DNA of 64,000 nucleotides from a plasmid, in assembly GCF_056712565.1 (NCBI RefSeq), contig NZ_JBWXXM010000004.1; one strand, given 5' to 3'. Positions 1-53,078 of the stretch are shown piece by piece. The position numbers and the translations under genes are program-made. A model generated the notes under the pieces. That model did not search any database. It worked only from the letters and a program-made list of their open reading frames with translations, and was not told the DNA's origin. How positions within the stretch are numbered: position 1 is the stretch's first letter; each line of letters starts with the position of its first letter.

Positions 1-1035
1 CTGCGCGATGTCAGGAAGTATGGTTTCGGTGAGATATTTCAGTGTCCGCCAGATAAATATGCGGACCCGCGTCGTGTAATCTCGCTGTATCGCGAGCTGC
101 CAGCACCGGTAGTGCCAGATGATTGGCAACTCGTACCTAAGAAAATAACACTGGAAATGGAATGTGCTCTATCAAAAGCTGATAGCTATGAAATTGGTTG
201 GCTATGGGCATTGGCAGCCGCACCTAAATACGAAGTACAGAACGCTAAACGCGTGCAAAACGCGCTTAACGCCTGCCGCGCCGCCATGCTTCAGTCCGGA
301 AACTTTCGGGAAAACAAGAATTCGTCAACCAATAATTTTCGGGAAATCGCGGAAACGTCAACCAACTATCCGGCAATTCCTAGTGAGGTGTTGTCCGCAA
401 TCCTGAAGGTTGCCAGGATTCGTGCCGATTTCGATGATTTTGACGGTGACAGGCGAGGTATCGGTGATTGTCTGGATGAGGCTGAGCAAGAGCTTATCGT
501 TACCATTAACAAATATGCCAGTCAGTTGGCAGCAGAACCGATAGCGACTAATGACGTTCGAGAGCAGCAGACAGCCGTTCCGCCAGTTCCGGAAATACAG
601 GATGATGTCGCGCAAGCAATTGAAAATCTCAAGCAGAAGTTAGTGGAATGCAATCGCTATAACTACTGCGCAGATGCAGTTAAAGGCGTAGAGGATGCCT
701 GCCACGCTGCCATGCTTCAGGGTAGGGAACGCCTTGTTCTGGATGCCGCTACCAGAACCGCCGCAGGAGGCGAAATGATGGATGTAAAAGAGAAGGTTTT
801 GCAGGTGATGCGTTCCCGGGCTGCCCTGCAAGATAAAGCTCTCGGCGGGGAATATCCATTCAGGATGGCAACCTGGAATCTGCGGTTGGCAATGGAGAAG
901 GAATTTCCTGATGAAGAATGGCGGTCGGCAGATTTGCGCAAAATTCTTATGGAGCTGGCTAAAGATGGAACAGTATCCAAAGATACCCATGCCAGCCGGA
1001 TTGGTCAGGCGGTATGGAGACTGGAGGTGAGGTAA
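1..1035 (+). CDS. hypothetical phage protein, 5' end outside the window
   Basis: Frame 1 is open from nt 1 to the stop at 1033-1035 (ORF track lists the GTG-started part 112-1035); no motif I can name; pmg-region position upstream of hot. Confidence 0.4.
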   Translation: MRDVRKYGFGEIFQCPPDKYADPRRVISLYRELPAPVVPDDWQLVPKKITLEMECALSKADSYEIGWLWALAAAPKYEVQNAKRVQNALNACRAAMLQSGNFRENKNSSTNNFREIAETSTNYPAIPSEVLSAILKVARIRADFDDFDGDRRGIGDCLDEAEQELIVTINKYASQLAAEPIATNDVREQQTAVPPVPEIQDDVAQAIENLKQKLVECNRYNYCADAVKGVEDACHAAMLQGRERLVLDAATRTAAGGEMMDVKEKVLQVMRSRAALQDKALGGEYPFRMATWNLRLAMEKEFPDEEWRSADLRKILMELAKDGTVSKDTHASRIGQAVWRLEVR

Positions 1036-2830: not shown

Positions 2831-3081
2831 ATTACAGGTGCGCGTAGATGAGCTGAAAAAGAGAACGCGAGCCTCAAAAAAATGCTGTCGCGGGCGGAAA
2901 GGGAATTATCAGGCAAATTATTGCCAGAAGAACTGCCACCAGCAGATATACTAGATCGAGTGTCCCAGTGGATGAAGTCTTTTGGTTTACCGTGGGAGGC
3001 TTTTTGGTGCTACGACCATCGCAGATGGTGTGATGAACTTGATAGCAATTTTCCCTACTTTGCGGAAGGGAACACCTGCCC

Positions 3082-3432
3082 TCAATGCAGGGGATAGCAT
3101 TTGACGAAATCGATCACCCTATCCTGAACTTCAGAAAGAAGGTCTTTTTCACGCGCCAGGACGTCAGGATATTGACGTTCTGGCCTTACCAGATGCCGGA
3201 GCTTCCCATTAAGCAGAATGGCCTCAGAAAACACTTTTACGCTGTGCTTTATCCCCTCTGTTTCACTTTTCAGCGTCAAAATAAAGCGCAATTGCTTATT
3301 AGCCTGATTCGGATTCAATACACGAATTTGCAGTTCGTCTATGCTGTTTCGCAATGGGATTGATGCCACCACACTGGTGCAGTCTCTGATTGTCTGAATT
3401 GAACGGCTAACATTGAGAACGTTATTGTGCAT
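3082..3432 (-). CDS. hypothetical protein (116 aa), lxr-position relative to hot/humD
   Basis: ORF track; position only. Confidence 0.3.
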   Translation of the reverse strand: MHNNVLNVSRSIQTIRDCTSVVASIPLRNSIDELQIRVLNPNQANKQLRFILTLKSETEGIKHSVKVFSEAILLNGKLRHLVRPERQYPDVLAREKDLLSEVQDRVIDFVKCYPLH

Positions 3433-3464
3433 GTGCCTGATCCACTAACTCCTGGAGGTTTCTT

Positions 3465-3716
3465 GTGTCAGATCGAAATATAGCAGCTAAAAGCCAGGAA
3501 GAGCGAGACAAGGTGAACGTAGACCTTGCCGCCAGCGGCGTTGCTTACAAAGAACGGCTGAATATACCTGTGATTGCAGAGCAGGTGGCCCGTGAGCAAC
3601 CGGAAAACCTGCGCGCCTATTTCATGGAACGGCTACGGCACTACCGGCAGTTAAGCCTCCAGTTGCCAAAAGGGAGCGATCCGGTGTATCAGAACGAGGA
3701 TGCACCAAAAAAATAA
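3465..3716 (+). CDS. hot: Hot, homologue of DNA polymerase III theta subunit (HolE)
   Basis: 83-aa product with [39 protein letters not shown] resembling theta subunit; P1-like synteny hot-humD-phd-doc. Confidence 0.75.
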
Positions 3717-3802
3717 CGGCAAGATGGGGGAGAAATGTGATTAGCCCCCAGCGTGGCGCGCCTACAAACCCCGCTTTCACAAACTATGCCTTTTCAATGT
3801 AT

Positions 3803-3822
3803 ACTGTATGAATAAACAGTAT
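3803..3822. promoter_or_regulatory. LexA box (SOS operator) upstream of humD
   Basis: tactgtatgaataaacagta = CTGT-N8-ACAG palindrome close to consensus TACTGTATATATATACAGTA, 18 nt upstream of the humD start. Confidence 0.6.
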
Positions 3823-3839
3823 CATTGAGGTAAAACGCT

Positions 3840-4229
3840 ATGGGCTTCCCTTCTCCTGCGGCGGATTATGTTGAAAGCCGAATTTCTCTTGATCAGCAGA
3901 TAATTAGACATCCATCAGCAACCTACTTCATGCGGGCAGCTGATAGCCATCACCGTGAGGGAATATTGCAGGGTGCTTTGCTGGTGGTTGATTCTTCGCT
4001 TACTCCAGTTGATGGTTCGCTGCTTGTGTGCGCTATGGAGGGTGAATATCGCATAAAGAGATACAGGAAGTATCCGCGCCAGCACCTGGAGGATTTAAGC
4101 ACCGGGAAGAAAGAGGCGTTACCAGTAGATGACGATGGATGCACGGGCAGTAATGCTGTTTTTGGTGTGATCACTCATGTCATCAATGATGCCCGAAGTG
4201 GGGAGTTTGATGATTGTCCGGTTATTTAA
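3840..4229 (+). CDS. humD: HumD, UmuD-like S24 peptidase-family SOS mutagenesis protein
   Basis: 129-aa product, LexA/UmuD-like C-terminal domain; LexA box upstream; P1 synteny. Confidence 0.8.
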   Translation: MGFPSPAADYVESRISLDQQIIRHPSATYFMRAADSHHREGILQGALLVVDSSLTPVDGSLLVCAMEGEYRIKRYRKYPRQHLEDLSTGKKEALPVDDDGCTGSNAVFGVITHVINDARSGEFDDCPVI

Positions 4230-4301
4230 GCTGCAAAGGGCTGGTGCTTTATGCCTGTGAGGTTTATAATTGTGTACACATAACGAGTACACGAGGTGTT
4301 T

Positions 4302-4523
4302 ATGCAATCCATTAACTTCCGTACCGCGCGCGGCAACCTTTCTGAAGTGCTCAACAATGTTGAAGCCGGGGAAGAGGTTGAAATCACCCGCAGAGGCCGT
4401 GAGCCAGCAGTAATTGTCAGCAAGGCTACTTTCGAAGCCTACAAAAAAGCGGCGCTGGATGCTGAATTTGCATCCCTGTTTGACACCCTGGACTCCACCA
4501 ACAAGGAACTGGTTAACCGATAA
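4302..4523 (+). CDS. phd: Phd antitoxin (prevents host death)
   Basis: Translation [73 protein letters not shown] matches P1 Phd as I recall it; stop overlaps doc ATG (taATGa). Confidence 0.9.
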
Positions 4524-4903
4524 TGAGGCATATATCACCGGAAGAACTTATTGCGCTTCATGATGCGAATATAAGCCGCTACGGCGGCCTGCCTGGCATG
4601 TCAGATCCGGGCAGGGCAGAGGCCATTATCGGGAGAGTTCAGGCCAGAGTTGCCTACGAAGAGATCACCGACCTTTTCGAAGTCTCCGCCACCTACCTGG
4701 TGGCTACAGCGAGAGGGCATATATTCAATGATGCCAATAAGCGTACCGCGCTAAACAGCGCGCTGCTATTTCTACGCCGTAACGGGGTGCAGGTATTTGA
4801 TTCACCTGAACTGGCAGACCTTACTGTAGGCGCTGCGACTGGCGAGATATCTGTATCTTCTGTCGCCGACACGTTACGTAGATTGTATGGTTCTGCGGAG
4901 TAG
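4523..4903 (+). CDS. doc: Doc toxin (death on curing; Fic-fold kinase)
   Basis: 126-aa product [22 protein letters not shown]...; translationally coupled to phd. Confidence 0.9.
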
Positions 4904-5087
4904 ATTAATGGCACGCAAATACAACAAATTGTCCCTTGAAGCGTTAAAGATGCTTCTTGATGGCGTGAGTCGCCGCAAGGTAAAGCAATACCTGGTTGGT
5001 AAGCAAATTGGAGTCAGGACCGCTATTGCTGTGTTATGCCGTCAGGAAATGGTTGTGCTTAAACAGAGAATGCCGGGCAGCAGATAA
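4887..5087 (+). CDS. hypothetical small protein (66 aa), post-doc position
   Basis: ORF track only. Confidence 0.25.
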
Positions 5088-5114
5088 AGCCCAATCAGTG
5101 ATTAAAGGTGTGAT

Positions 5115-6158
5115 GTGAAAGCCGTAATTACTCCCTTTGTACAGAAAGAGCTTGGCCTCGCCACGTTCAAAGTGGATCAGGAGGTCAGAAAACTGGTGGA
5201 GGCTGGCCGTAAATTTATCATGGAGCCGGTGCCGCGTGAGTTAATCGAGCACATGGAAGACGGCCTCGTTGTTACCGAGCAAACCATGGCAACAAATGAG
5301 GCGTTGCAGCCGTTTTTTAACAGCGATGAACTGTTTCGCCGTATTGGTGGAATTGACGCGCTGGTGGCGTGGTTGCGTAGGAAAGAGGGTCAATGCCAGG
5401 CCGCAGATCGTAGTTGGTGTGACAACCATATTGTCCACGCTGAACGAGACAATAGCGCGGTGTTGTTGTGCTGGCATCACGATAACCATTACCGGATGCG
5501 TGGTTTTAATGAGCTGAAAGAAACGCTGCACAATAATCGCGTTAACTGGATACTGGATGTCGCCCGTCAGGAAATGGGCCTTTCAAATAGCCATGATTTA
5601 AGTATTCAGGAGCTGTGCTGGTGGGCTTTCATGCGCAACATGATGCACCTGATGCCGGAAGAAGTCTGCCGCATATCAATAAATAAGATGAAGGCTACTC
5701 CGCAGGATAGCGGACCTCTGAAAGAGGCGGATATTCGCCCGTATGACGATCGCGCTACAGCATATGTTCAGATGATGGAAGAACGCGCCGCGCCGATGCG
5801 TGCAAAAGTATGCCCTGTGGATGTTGACTCCGACCCAGGTATGGCGCATTTCAAAATACCAAAACTTCAATCGCTAAAATTGCCCGAGTACATGGACTTT
5901 GTGGCTTCCCGTCCATGCTGTGGCTGTGGAGCTGCGGGAGCTGGCGCTCACATTACGCCTTATATCGTTCGTCATAGTCGATTATGCGCGCATGACATTT
6001 ATGCTATTCCTCTGTGCCAGTCATGCCAGCGTGATATTGAGCGTGACCGCGATAATTGGGAGAAGACGCACGGTAGGCTGGCGATGCATCAACGATTGTT
6101 CTTTGATTACGCGCTTGGAGTCGGCGCTATCACAAGTCACTCGTCGAGCGTTAGATAA
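5115..6158 (+). CDS. hypothetical protein with C-terminal Cys cluster (347 aa), post-doc position
   Basis: GTG start; C-terminal CCGCG...CAHD...CQSCQ metal-binding-like cluster. Confidence 0.45.
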
Positions 6159-11029: not shown

Positions 11030-11063
11030 TTCAGACCTAATAACTTCGTATAGCATACATTAT
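11030..11063. other. loxP site-specific recombination site
   Basis: Exact 34-bp ATAACTTCGTATAGCATACATTATACGAAGTTAT (13-bp inverted repeats plus 8-bp spacer). Confidence 0.97.
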
Positions 11064-11171
11064 ACGAAGTTATCTTAAGGGTTATTGAACATGATCAATT
11101 TACCTGTAAATCCATACAGTTCAATACCTTATCAGGTCAAATAGTGATCACTTGATCATTTGATCAAGGTT

Positions 11172-11262: not shown

Positions 11263-11484
11263 ATGGGATATTCAGCTGCTAAAGTGTCCACTCATATTGA
11301 GCTTGAGAAAAACCGTGGTTACTGGCGGGCAAAAGGGTTTGATCGTGATAGTTGTCAACTGTCATTATCGCGCGGTGAAGAGAAAATAGAACGCACGCGC
11401 GGTCGCTGGCGTTTCTATGACGAGAACCATAAACAGGTAAAGGCAGAGCCGATCCTGTACACTTTACTTAAAACCATTATCTGA
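11263..11484 (+). CDS. Cra-position small protein (cre-associated function), 73 aa
   Basis: 73-aa ORF ending 8 nt before cre. Confidence 0.5.
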   Translation: MGYSAAKVSTHIELEKNRGYWRAKGFDRDSCQLSLSRGEEKIERTRGRWRFYDENHKQVKAEPILYTLLKTII

Positions 11485-11491
11485 GTGTTAA

Positions 11492-12523
11492 ATGTCCAAT
11501 TTACTGACCGTACACCAAAATTTGCCTGCATTACCGGTCGATGCAACGAGTGATGAGGTTCGCAAGAACCTGATGGACATGTTCAGGGATCGCCAGGCGT
11601 TTTCTGAGCATACCTGGAAAATGCTTCTGTCCGTTTGCCGATCGTGGGCGGCATGGTGCAAGTTGAATAACCGGAAATGGTTTCCCGCAGAACCTGAAGA
11701 TGTTCGCGATTATCTTCTATATCTTCAGGCGCGCGGTCTGGCAGTAAAAACTATCCAGCAACATTTGGGCCAGCTAAACATGCTTCATCGTCGGTCCGGG
11801 CTGCCACGACCAAGTGACAGTAATGCTGTTTCACTGGTCATGCGACGGATCCGAAAAGAAAACGTTGATGCCGGTGAACGTGCAAAACAGGCACTGGCGT
11901 TCGAACGCACTGATTTCGACCAGGTTCGTTCACTCATGGAAAATAGCGATCGCTGCCAGGATATACGTAATCTGGCATTTCTGGGGATTGCTTATAACAC
12001 CCTATTACGTATAGCCGAAATTGCCAGGATCAGGGTTAAAGATATCTCACGTACTGACGGTGGGAGAATGTTAATCCATATTGGCAGAACGAAAACGCTG
12101 GTTAGCACCGCAGGTGTAGAGAAGGCACTTAGCCTGGGGGTAACTAAACTGGTCGAGCGATGGATTTCTGTCTCTGGTGTGGCTGATGATCCGAATAACT
12201 ACTTGTTTTGCCGTGTCAGAAAAAATGGTGTTGCCGCGCCATCTGCCACCAGCCAGCTATCAACTCGCGCCCTGGAAGGGATTTTTGAAGCAACTCATCG
12301 ATTGATTTACGGCGCTAAGGATGACTCTGGTCAGAGATACCTGGCCTGGTCTGGACACAGTGCCCGTGTCGGAGCCGCGCGAGATATGGCCCGCGCCGGA
12401 GTTTCAATACCGGAGATCATGCAAGCTGGTGGCTGGACCAACGTAAATATTGTCATGAACTATATCCGTAACCTGGATAGTGAAACGGGGGCAATGGTGC
12501 GCCTGCTGGAAGATGGCGATTAG
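11492..12523 (+). CDS. cre: Cre tyrosine recombinase
   Basis: 343-aa product MSNLLTVHQNLPALPVDATSDEVRKNLMDMFRDRQAFSEHTWKMLLSVCRSWAAWCKL... with catalytic Tyr context NVNIVMNYIR; adjacent loxP. Confidence 0.97.
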   Translation: MSNLLTVHQNLPALPVDATSDEVRKNLMDMFRDRQAFSEHTWKMLLSVCRSWAAWCKLNNRKWFPAEPEDVRDYLLYLQARGLAVKTIQQHLGQLNMLHRRSGLPRPSDSNAVSLVMRRIRKENVDAGERAKQALAFERTDFDQVRSLMENSDRCQDIRNLAFLGIAYNTLLRIAEIARIRVKDISRTDGGRMLIHIGRTKTLVSTAGVEKALSLGVTKLVERWISVSGVADDPNNYLFCRVRKNGVAAPSATSQLSTRALEGIFEATHRLIYGAKDDSGQRYLAWSGHSARVGAARDMARAGVSIPEIMQAGGWTNVNIVMNYIRNLDSETGAMVRLLEDGD

Positions 12524-52043: not shown

Positions 52044-53078
52044 TCAAGCCTTAAGAGGCTTTGTGTATGTTCGTGTAATCCATCCAGTAATAAACTCGTC
52101 CCCTGATTTAACCTGCACGAAAAGCCATTGGCGATCTTTTTTATCTAAAACAGCCACTATAGTATTTTTGCCAATGCATTCAATCACCTCACTATTTATA
52201 GAAGGACTGACGTGTAATCTTACGTTCTCACCAGTTATAAAACGAAAACCATTGAGATCTTCCCAACTAATTTCTTTGTTTTCTTTAATTAATTGTTGTT
52301 TTGATATTGGTTTATCCTCAAACAGAGATATAAAATATGATTCTGCCTTGTGTATTCCCAGCAAGGTTTTCTCTTTTCCGTAATCAATAAAAGCACCAAA
52401 CACAACTTGAGAAAATATAACCATTAGTAACCATTGCAGTGGATAAGGAAGCTCTTTAAATGAATCAACAAACTTTGAGCTAGGTTTATTTAATCCTTTA
52501 TTTTGAACATTACTTTTGGTGTGTGATGTTTCAGTAGCACCTTCAGCATAAGCCTGCGCAATAGATGAAATCCCCTGCTCTATTATTTGATGTAATGAAG
52601 CATTTCTTGTTCTAGCATAGTGATCTAGTACTTTCTTTATGTCTTGGCTTACATCTATTTTATAACTTGCACTTTGTTGTAATTCTTTAAGTATCGCTTG
52701 CATGTTATTTAAACCAGCTTGCTTATTAAGCACCTCAAGCTGTTTTCGTAATGGCATAGCTATTTCGGCCTGTTTCCTTAGCATTTGAATATATCTATTT
52801 GCATCATGAGGGAAAAGAGCCTGAGTCTGTTTCTGTAAAATCGCGATATGTTCACGATACTTGCTGCCTATTCCAGCCAAGTTCGGTATACTAGCCAATT
52901 GTTTTCGAAGAGAGTTACTAATTACAGCTTGTCTATTCAATCTTGGCATATTTTGAAAAGAATGTTTTTCTATTCCTAATTGTTTTTGCAAGATCGCTAC
53001 GTGATCTTTGTATGATGGAATGAGCACTGACTGTTTATACAGCAACTTCAACTCATTAGAATTAGTAATTTTTGTCAT
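52044..53078 (-). CDS. membrane-anchored protein with N-terminal ILQKQ-type repeats and C-terminal SH3-like domain (sim-position cluster)
   Basis: 344-aa; repeats HVAILQKQ / HIAILQKQ / LRKQ; TM segment LPYPLQWLLMVIFSQVVFGAFIDYG; C-terminal GENVRLHVSPSINSEVIECIGKNTIVAVLDKKDRQWLFVQVKSGDEFITGWITRTY; AT-rich codon usage. Confidence 0.5.
   Translation of the reverse strand: MTKITNSNELKLLYKQSVLIPSYKDHVAILQKQLGIEKHSFQNMPRLNRQAVISNSLRKQLASIPNLAGIGSKYREHIAILQKQTQALFPHDANRYIQMLRKQAEIAMPLRKQLEVLNKQAGLNNMQAILKELQQSASYKIDVSQDIKKVLDHYARTRNASLHQIIEQGISSIAQAYAEGATETSHTKSNVQNKGLNKPSSKFVDSFKELPYPLQWLLMVIFSQVVFGAFIDYGKEKTLLGIHKAESYFISLFEDKPISKQQLIKENKEISWEDLNGFRFITGENVRLHVSPSINSEVIECIGKNTIVAVLDKKDRQWLFVQVKSGDEFITGWITRTYTKPLKA

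What the first reader, a model, noticed from the sequence alone, without database searches (positions are those of the whole stretch)
3803..4229. SOS-controlled humD next to hot
A near-consensus LexA box sits 18 nt upstream of humD, so the phage couples its mutagenesis-protein homologue to host DNA damage; hot (theta-subunit homologue) lies immediately upstream without an obvious box.
Basis: partly seen in the sequence, partly recalled or inferred. Interest (0 to 1): 0.25.

Follow-up and report, generated by a model that had tools for sequence, protein, structure and literature searches.

The report
Known LexA box before P1-type humD
A P1-like phage-plasmid carries a strong binding site for the host DNA-damage repressor LexA just before its humD gene, so humD is very probably switched on by DNA damage; the same site is already annotated in phages P1 and P7, so this is ordinary.

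Summary
TACTGTATGAATAAACAGTA lies at 3802-3821, 18 nt before the humD ATG at 3840. It is the only site in 64 kb within 3 mismatches of the 20-mer E. coli LexA consensus (0 of 100 shuffles). A sigma-70-like promoter (TTCACA-18-TATACT, 3776-3805) overlaps it.

humD (3840-4229) is 98% identical to P1 HumD and starts at the residue matching Gly25 of UmuD, so it resembles pre-cleaved UmuD'. No umuC homologue is in the window. hot (3465-3716, Pol III theta family) ends 85 nt upstream of the box and has no LexA-like site.

The window is a P1-like phage-plasmid (100% to E. coli plasmid CP098993.1, 99% to phage RCS47). GenBank records for P1 and P7 already annotate this LexA site for humD. In 90 related loci the positions T1, CTGTA and ACAGT never change, while the spacer and every flanking column vary.

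The one local difference is that the divergent gene lxr, which separates hot from the box in P1, is absent. That arrangement is common (32 of 80 IMG/VR loci).

Verdict: already known, low interest. As far as I could find, LexA binding and damage induction have not been shown directly.

The parts
3465..3716 (+). hot, a homologue of the DNA polymerase III theta subunit (83 aa, GTG start, GGAGG 8 nt upstream)
   Evidence: ORF. Pfam DNA_pol3_theta 2.8e-33; phrog_1105 9e-42. Annotated hot in RCS47 at the same coordinates. No LexA-like site upstream.
3776..3781 (+). Candidate -35 hexamer TTCACA of the proximal humD promoter
   Evidence: Consensus scan, 10 of 12 matches with an 18-nt spacer; the only promoter-like hit in 3000-5200. 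P1/P7-type loci have TTGCAC at the equivalent place. Predicted, not mapped.
3800..3805 (+). Candidate -10 hexamer TATACT; its last 4 bases are the first 4 of the LexA box
   Evidence: TATACT in 75 of 80 IMG/VR loci and TATGCT in 5. Laboratory P1 alone has TGTACT.
3802..3821 (.). LexA operator (SOS box) TACTGTATGAATAAACAGTA
   Evidence: 17 of 20 to consensus, unique in the window, 0 of 100 shuffles. Approximate heterology index 3.0, between umuDC 2.4 and recA 4.95 on the same matrix. Homologous to the annotated LexA sites of P1 and P7. Half-sites invariant in 90 loci.
3827..3830 (+). Shine-Dalgarno GAGG, 9 nt before the humD ATG
   Evidence: Read directly from the sequence. Largely conserved as tGAGGt across the relatives.
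3840..4229 (+). humD, a UmuD'-like protein (129 aa) with no N-terminal arm or cleavage site
   Evidence: Peptidase_S24 6.7e-9; phrog_811 UmuD-like 1e-54. PDB UmuD' 1umu 4e-23, with query residue 2 aligned to UmuD' residue 1 and to UmuD residue 25. 126 of 129 identical to P1 HumD. In-frame stops just upstream.
4302..4903 (+). phd-doc toxin-antitoxin operon, co-linear 72 nt downstream, with no terminator in between
   Evidence: Pfam PhdYeFM_antitox and Fic/DOC. phd lies exactly 72 nt after humD in 74 of 76 related loci. No terminator-like hairpin. Its link to the SOS promoter is inferred only.

Best explanation
This is the P1-family humD SOS operator. In an undamaged lysogen, an E. coli LexA dimer binds the 20-bp palindrome at 3802-3821. 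The palindrome overlaps the -10 hexamer and probable start point of a sigma-70 promoter (TTCACA-18-TATACT), so RNA polymerase is excluded and humD stays off. DNA damage produces RecA filaments, LexA cleaves itself, the promoter opens and HumD is made. HumD begins where RecA-cleaved UmuD' begins. It therefore needs no activation step and can pair with the host's own SOS-induced UmuC to form a Pol V-like lesion-bypass polymerase. hot is a separate, non-SOS gene that sits directly upstream only because this variant lacks lxr. What is shown here is the sequence, position, statistical rarity and conservation of the box, and the identity of the proteins. LexA occupancy, the promoter assignment, induction and the HumD-UmuC partnership are inferred; the partnership rests on published P1 work recalled from McLenigan et al. 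1999, which is not in the held library.
For: The site is unique and near-consensus. Its approximate heterology index of 3.0 ranks it with the tightest E. coli operators. It overlaps the only promoter-like site in 3000-5200. The 18-nt distance to the ATG matches tightly LexA-controlled genes in Salmonella (umuD 15, dinI 19, sulA 21; PMC8072944). All 80 IMG/VR loci encoding close HumD relatives have CTGT-N8-ACAG 16-19 nt before the ATG. In 32 distinct sequences from 90 loci, T1, CTGTA and ACAGT are invariant while the spacer and all 44 flanking columns vary. The box persists upstream of distant humD homologues in N15, phiKO2, HK639 and Cyrano, where the flanks cannot be aligned. BLAST homology to N15 begins at the first base of the box. 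P1, P7 and phiKO2 records annotate the equivalent LexA sites. HumD matches UmuD' as described above, and no umuC is present.
Against: No binding or expression data exist for this sequence, and I found none for P1 in the papers I could read. The -35 element is weak and the spacer is 18-19 nt. The P1 record places its predicted PhumD about 440 bp further upstream, inside lxr, so the promoter assignment is not settled. No terminator separates hot from humD, so some LexA-independent read-through from hot is possible. My heterology matrix was rebuilt from remembered operator sequences, so its values are approximate.
Confidence: 0.85

Rival explanations
1. The box is a relic. In P1 it mainly serves the divergent gene lxr ('LexA-regulated function'). 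In this lxr-less variant it has been left behind and does not control humD in any meaningful way.
For: P1 annotates the site as lying in the regulatory region of both lxr and humD. phiKO2 likewise shares its site between a divergent dinI-like gene and the umuD-like gene. lxr is absent from the window.
Against: The box keeps a fixed 16-19 nt distance to the humD ATG in all 80 loci, whether or not lxr is present. It is intact in 32 lxr-less, hot-adjacent loci. It is also intact in N15, HK639 and Cyrano, which have no divergent partner annotated. Sequence homology between phage families covers exactly the box plus humD.
Confidence: 0.05
2. humD is mainly transcribed by read-through from hot or further upstream. 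LexA at the box acts at most as a weak roadblock, so humD expression follows hot (lysogenic and lytic) rather than SOS.
For: hot and humD are on the same strand, 123 nt apart, with no terminator-like structure between them. The title of Chikova and Schaaper 2007, cited in PMC4713147, says hot is expressed in both lysogenic and lytic growth.
Against: A promoter-like site with a good -10 sits right at the box and is conserved in loci with quite different upstream DNA (lxr, hot or neither). Strict conservation of the LexA half-sites implies selection for LexA binding. No promoter-like site for hot itself was detected.
Confidence: 0.08
3. The palindrome is a chance or structural feature with no regulatory role.
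For: The bare CTGT-N8-ACAG pattern occurs about 0.5 times per 64 kb by chance, and 10 of 100 shuffles had 2 or more matches.
Against: The full 20-mer match never occurs in shuffles. Its position relative to the promoter and ATG, and the half-site-specific conservation across 90 loci and several phage families, are not expected by chance.
Confidence: 0.02

Closest known systems
LexA binding site upstream of humD in phage P1 (AF234172.1, 87545-87564) and P7 (AF503408.1, 94404-94423)
   Same: Orthologous locus. It has the same half-sites, the same position (18 versus 19 nt before the ATG), the same downstream humD-phd-doc block, and a HumD protein 98% identical.
   Different: There are two spacer substitutions (TATGAATAAACA here, TATAAATGAACA in P1). 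The divergent gene lxr is absent, so hot ends 85 nt upstream of the box. The 30 nt upstream of the box, including the -35, are only about 65% identical to P1. Laboratory P1 has TGTACT where this window and 75 of 80 relatives have TATACT.
E. coli umuDC operator (TACTGTATATAAAAACAGTA) and the UmuD/UmuD' system
   Same: Both have a strong 20-bp LexA box close to the start codon of a umuD-family gene. The protein is an S24-fold UmuD' homologue that retains the Ser and Lys aligned with UmuD Ser60 and Lys97.
   Different: There is no umuC partner in the operon or the window. The protein is made already 'cleaved', starting at the Gly25 equivalent, so the RecA-mediated activation step is bypassed. It also has a C-terminal extension of about 13 residues.
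Orphan umuD'-like genes with LexA boxes in the linear plasmid-prophages N15 (gp26) and phiKO2 (gp23), and in lambdoid HK639
   Same: Each has an orphan UmuD'-like gene preceded by CTGT-N8-ACAG. phiKO2 carries an annotated lexA binding site.
   Different: DNA identity is only about 66-68% and the genomic context differs (after tail genes, next to sopAB or integrase). A terminator follows the gene there, rather than phd-doc.

Membership tests
E. coli-type (gammaproteobacterial) LexA operator / SOS box | 16-bp palindrome CTGT-N8-ACAG | tested here: met
   Exact match at 3804-3819.
E. coli-type (gammaproteobacterial) LexA operator / SOS box | Close to the 20-mer consensus TACTGTATATATATACAGTA, with a heterology index in the range of proven operators (published working limit about 12-13, recalled from Lewis 1994 and Fernandez de Henestrosa 2000) | tested here: met
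   17 of 20 matches, unique in 64 kb, 0 of 100 shuffles. Approximate index 3.0 on a matrix rebuilt from 22 recalled E. coli operators. That matrix gives umuDC 2.4, recA 4.95, sulA 5.0 and polB 12.0, close to the published values as I recall them.
E. coli-type (gammaproteobacterial) LexA operator / SOS box | Overlaps or adjoins the promoter of the regulated gene | tested here: met
   Overlaps the predicted -10 TATACT (3800-3805) and lies 18 nt before the ATG. The promoter is predicted only.
E. coli-type (gammaproteobacterial) LexA operator / SOS box | Recognition bases conserved in orthologous loci | tested here: met
   T1, CTGTA and ACAGT invariant in 32 distinct sequences from 90 loci, while the spacer and flanks vary.
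E. coli-type (gammaproteobacterial) LexA operator / SOS box | LexA binds, and the gene is induced by DNA damage in a recA/lexA-dependent way | not testable with these tools
   This needs EMSA or footprinting and expression assays. No such data were found in the accessible papers.
HumD / UmuD'-like orphan mutagenesis protein | S24 (LexA/UmuD) peptidase-fold C-terminal domain | tested here: met
   Pfam PF00717 at 35.9 bits against a 23.3 cutoff. PDB UmuD' 1umu at 4e-23.
HumD / UmuD'-like orphan mutagenesis protein | Begins at the position of the UmuD Cys24/Gly25 cleavage site, with no N-terminal arm | tested here: met
   Query residue 2 aligns with UmuD' residue 1 and with residue 25 of full-length UmuD (8gmt_B). 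Stop codons lie in frame just upstream of the ATG.
HumD / UmuD'-like orphan mutagenesis protein | Not in an operon with a umuC homologue | tested here: met
   The downstream genes are phd and doc. tblastn with a recalled UmuC sequence finds nothing better than E = 0.26 in the window.
HumD / UmuD'-like orphan mutagenesis protein | Complements UmuD' and binds UmuC and RecA filaments | not testable with these tools
   Reported for P1 HumD by McLenigan et al. 1999 (recalled; paper not held). The protein here is 126 of 129 identical to P1 HumD.
Hot / DNA polymerase III theta subunit family | Match to the DNA_pol3_theta profile over most of its length | tested here: met
   PF06440 at 113.9 bits against a 34.6 cutoff, profile positions 3-67 of 70.

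The most novel reading that the evidence does not exclude
Two readings remain open. First, no terminator separates humD from phd-doc, and phd sits exactly 72 nt downstream in 74 of 76 relatives. The LexA-controlled promoter may therefore drive a humD-phd-doc read-through transcript, so DNA damage would also raise transcription of the plasmid-addiction module. Second, natural P1-like phage-plasmids, many of which carry resistance genes, have a better -10 (TATACT) than laboratory P1 (TGTACT). They may therefore make considerably more pre-activated UmuD' during SOS than the weak expression I recall being reported for laboratory P1 would suggest.
Probability: 0.2. Interest if true: 0.35.

Novelty: already known. 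Interest (0 to 1): 0.1.

Why it matters
It matters little as a discovery, because the LexA site before humD is in the P1 and P7 GenBank annotations and in the P1 literature. It is useful as confirmation in three ways. The operator and humD behave as a single conserved cassette across P1-like phage-plasmids and other temperate phages. The lxr-less arrangement here shows that the promoter next to the box is sufficient, rather than the distant PhumD predicted inside lxr in the P1 record. And direct LexA binding and induction data still appear to be missing. P1-like phage-plasmids spread resistance genes in E. coli and Salmonella, so a damage-induced, pre-activated mutagenesis factor on them has some practical relevance.

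Tried and rejected
1. I tried to read McLenigan 1999 (PMC94175), Lobocka 2004 (PMC523184) and Chikova and Schaaper 2007 (PMC2072811). None is held, so what I say about them is from memory or from citing papers.

2. I looked for a published table of LexA operator sequences to compute the exact Lewis heterology index. Only index values were found, not sequences, so I rebuilt an approximate matrix from recalled operators.

3. I looked for a terminator or stable hairpin between hot and humD and between humD and phd. There is none; z-scores were +0.39 and -0.19.

4. I looked for the P1 late promoter LPhot upstream of hot. It is absent, because homology to P1 starts only inside hot at about 3471, and no (A/T)GT(G/T)ACTT -22 element is present.

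5. I looked for a umuC homologue in the window and found none.

6. I considered that the box at 11102 might be a new site. It is the LexA site already annotated in P1 over P2coi.

7. Pfam gives no family for Lxr or for the 116-aa ORF upstream of hot. PHROGs places both in families of unknown function.

Full report
**What the window is.** Region 3400-4950 is 99% identical to phage RCS47 and 95% identical to phage P1, apart from a gap. Region 3440-4300 is 100% identical to the 95.7-kb E. coli plasmid CP098993.1. The window is therefore a P1-like phage-plasmid. Gene order on the + strand is:
- hot (3465-3716)
- humD (3840-4229)
- phd (4302-4523)
- doc (4523-4903)
- pdcA, pdcB and lpa

A 116-aa ORF of unknown function (3082-3432) runs divergently upstream of hot.

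**Checking the observation.**
- TACTGTATGAATAAACAGTA occupies 3802-3821.
- It contains a perfect CTGT-N8-ACAG core and matches 17 of 20 positions of the E. coli LexA consensus.
- It is the only site in 64 kb within three mismatches of that consensus, and none of 100 dinucleotide-preserving shuffles produced one.
- Exactly 18 nt separate it from the humD ATG.
- I rebuilt a heterology-index matrix from 22 E. coli operators recalled from the literature. It gives umuDC 2.4, recA 4.95, sulA 5.0 and polB 12.0, close to the published values as I recall them. On that matrix this box scores about 3.0, among the tightest class of operators.
- Nothing with an index below about 16 lies upstream of hot.

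**Anatomy.**
- The only sigma-70-like site in 3000-5200 is TTCACA-18 nt-TATACT at 3776-3805. Its -10 shares four bases with the box, so bound LexA would occlude the -10 and the likely start site.
- GAGG sits 9 nt before the ATG.
- HumD matches Peptidase_S24 and PHROG 'UmuD-like'.
- HumD aligns with crystallised UmuD' from its first residue, and with full-length UmuD from residue 25.
- The residues aligned with UmuD Ser60 and Lys97 are retained.
- Stop codons lie in frame directly upstream.
- HumD is 126 of 129 identical to P1 HumD.
- The downstream genes are phd and doc, not umuC. A tblastn search with UmuC finds nothing in the window.
- Hot is a clear theta-subunit homologue.

**Comparison with known records.**
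- The P1 record AF234172 annotates 87545-87564 as a 'LexA binding site in the regulatory region of lxr and humD'.
- The P7 record annotates the equivalent site as 'regulation of humD expression'.
- phiKO2 annotates a lexA site between a dinI-like gene and its umuD-like gene.
- PMC9603915 states that humD is LexA-regulated and lists pmgT-hot-lxr-humD as a hypervariable region of P1-like phage-plasmids.

The finding is therefore already known.

The local difference is structural. In P1 the 573-nt gene lxr lies on the opposite strand between hot and the box. Here, as in RCS47, 813R1 and D6, it is absent. The P1 record's predicted PhumD (87080-87106) lies inside lxr and so does not exist in this window. 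That argues that the conserved promoter adjoining the box is the working one.

**Conservation.**
- Among 12 phage records, 11 have a perfect CTGT-N8-ACAG core 8-44 nt before the humD homologue. These include N15, phiKO2, HK639, Cyrano and PhiR41_1, whose flanks are unrelated.
- The exception is HK140, where another ORF precedes the gene.
- BLAST homology to other phage families starts 9-15 nt before the box, or at its first base in N15, and ends at or just before the humD stop. Box and gene therefore travel as one cassette.
- All 80 IMG/VR loci encoding close HumD relatives have the box 16-19 nt before the ATG, in 13 sequence variants.
- In 32 distinct 64-nt segments from 90 loci, T1, CTGTA (positions 3-7) and ACAGT (15-19) are invariant. 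Positions 2, 8-14 and 20, and all 44 flanking columns, vary. This is the footprint expected of selection for LexA recognition.
- Within 1.5 kb upstream of humD in those 80 loci, 32 have hot alone, 30 have lxr alone, 11 have both and 7 have neither.
- 255 PLSDB plasmids cover at least 80% of the hot-humD query, so the arrangement here is common.

**Mechanism.** The most likely mechanism is LexA repression of a box-overlapping promoter, released by RecA-stimulated LexA self-cleavage after DNA damage. HumD would then act as a ready-made UmuD' for host UmuC. The operator properties are shown here. Binding, induction and the promoter assignment are inferred. The biochemical role of HumD rests on the P1 work of McLenigan et al. 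1999, which I could not open. CRISPRi data show that hot, lxr and humD are dispensable for P1 lytic growth (PMC10695390).

**Rivals.** I considered three rivals: a relic of lxr control, read-through from hot, and chance. Each is disfavoured by the fixed box-to-ATG spacing irrespective of upstream context and by the half-site-specific conservation. Read-through from hot cannot be excluded as a minor contribution, because no terminator is present.

**Open points.** No terminator separates humD from phd, and phd lies exactly 72 nt downstream in 74 of 76 loci. SOS-driven read-through into phd-doc is therefore possible but untested. Laboratory P1 is the only one of 90 loci with G at the second position of the putative -10 (TGTACT against TATACT). 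This might relate to the poor HumD expression that I recall being reported for P1.

**Verdict.** The feature is already known and of low interest.

Noticed in passing
window 11102-11121 (loxP at 11040-11073; cra 11263-11484; cre 11492-12523): A second LexA-like box, ACCTGTAAATCCATACAGTT (approximate heterology index 7.5), lies just after loxP among GATC sites. It corresponds to the 'LexA binding site' annotated in P1 at 46..65, overlapping promoter P2coi, which links SOS to the C1 anti-repressor Coi.
   Followed up: yes
window 53025-53044: A third, weaker LexA-like site, CACTGACTGTTTATACAGCA (approximate index 9.6), lies inside the first 20 codons of a 344-aa minus-strand ORF (52044-53078). 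That ORF has a weak C-terminal bacterial SH3 match and sits in an AT-rich stretch. The site may be chance.
   Followed up: partly
L001 (P1 AF234172) 2459-2464 versus window 3800-3805: Laboratory P1 has TGTACT at the putative humD -10. The window, P7, SJ46 and 75 of 80 IMG/VR relatives have TATACT, and the other 5 have TATGCT. P1 is the only one of 90 loci with this G, which may be a promoter-down change specific to the laboratory strain.
   Followed up: partly
window 3717-3801 versus L001 1747-2460: The gene lxr (190 aa, function unknown, PHROG 6164, no Pfam match) lies between hot and the LexA box in P1 but is absent here. The box spacer variant tracks the architecture: TATGAATAAACA goes with hot-adjacent loci and TATAAATGAACA with lxr-containing loci.
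   Followed up: yes
L004 (phage D6) 1138-1296 versus window 3544-3769: D6 has a truncated hot (147 nt). The cause appears to be a deletion of about 220 bp between two TACAAA repeats (window 3544-3549 and 3764-3769), which fuses mid-hot to the humD promoter region.
   Followed up: partly
window 3082-3470: The DNA upstream of hot is unrelated to P1. P1's upfM/N/O genes and late promoter LPhot are replaced by a divergent 116-aa ORF (PHROG 2594, function unknown). No promoter-like site for hot was detected, and hot uses a GTG start with a different N-terminus.
   Followed up: partly
window 4230-4301 and 76 related loci: The humD stop and the phd start are separated by exactly 72 nt in 74 of 76 relatives, with no terminator. 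LexA box, humD, phd and doc form one rigid co-linear block.
   Followed up: partly
L009 (phiKO2) 1154-1200: In phiKO2 the region between the LexA box and the umuD-like gene contains a second TACTGTAT half-site directly after the first box. This could be a tandem or overlapping operator shared with the divergent dinI-like gene.
   Followed up: no
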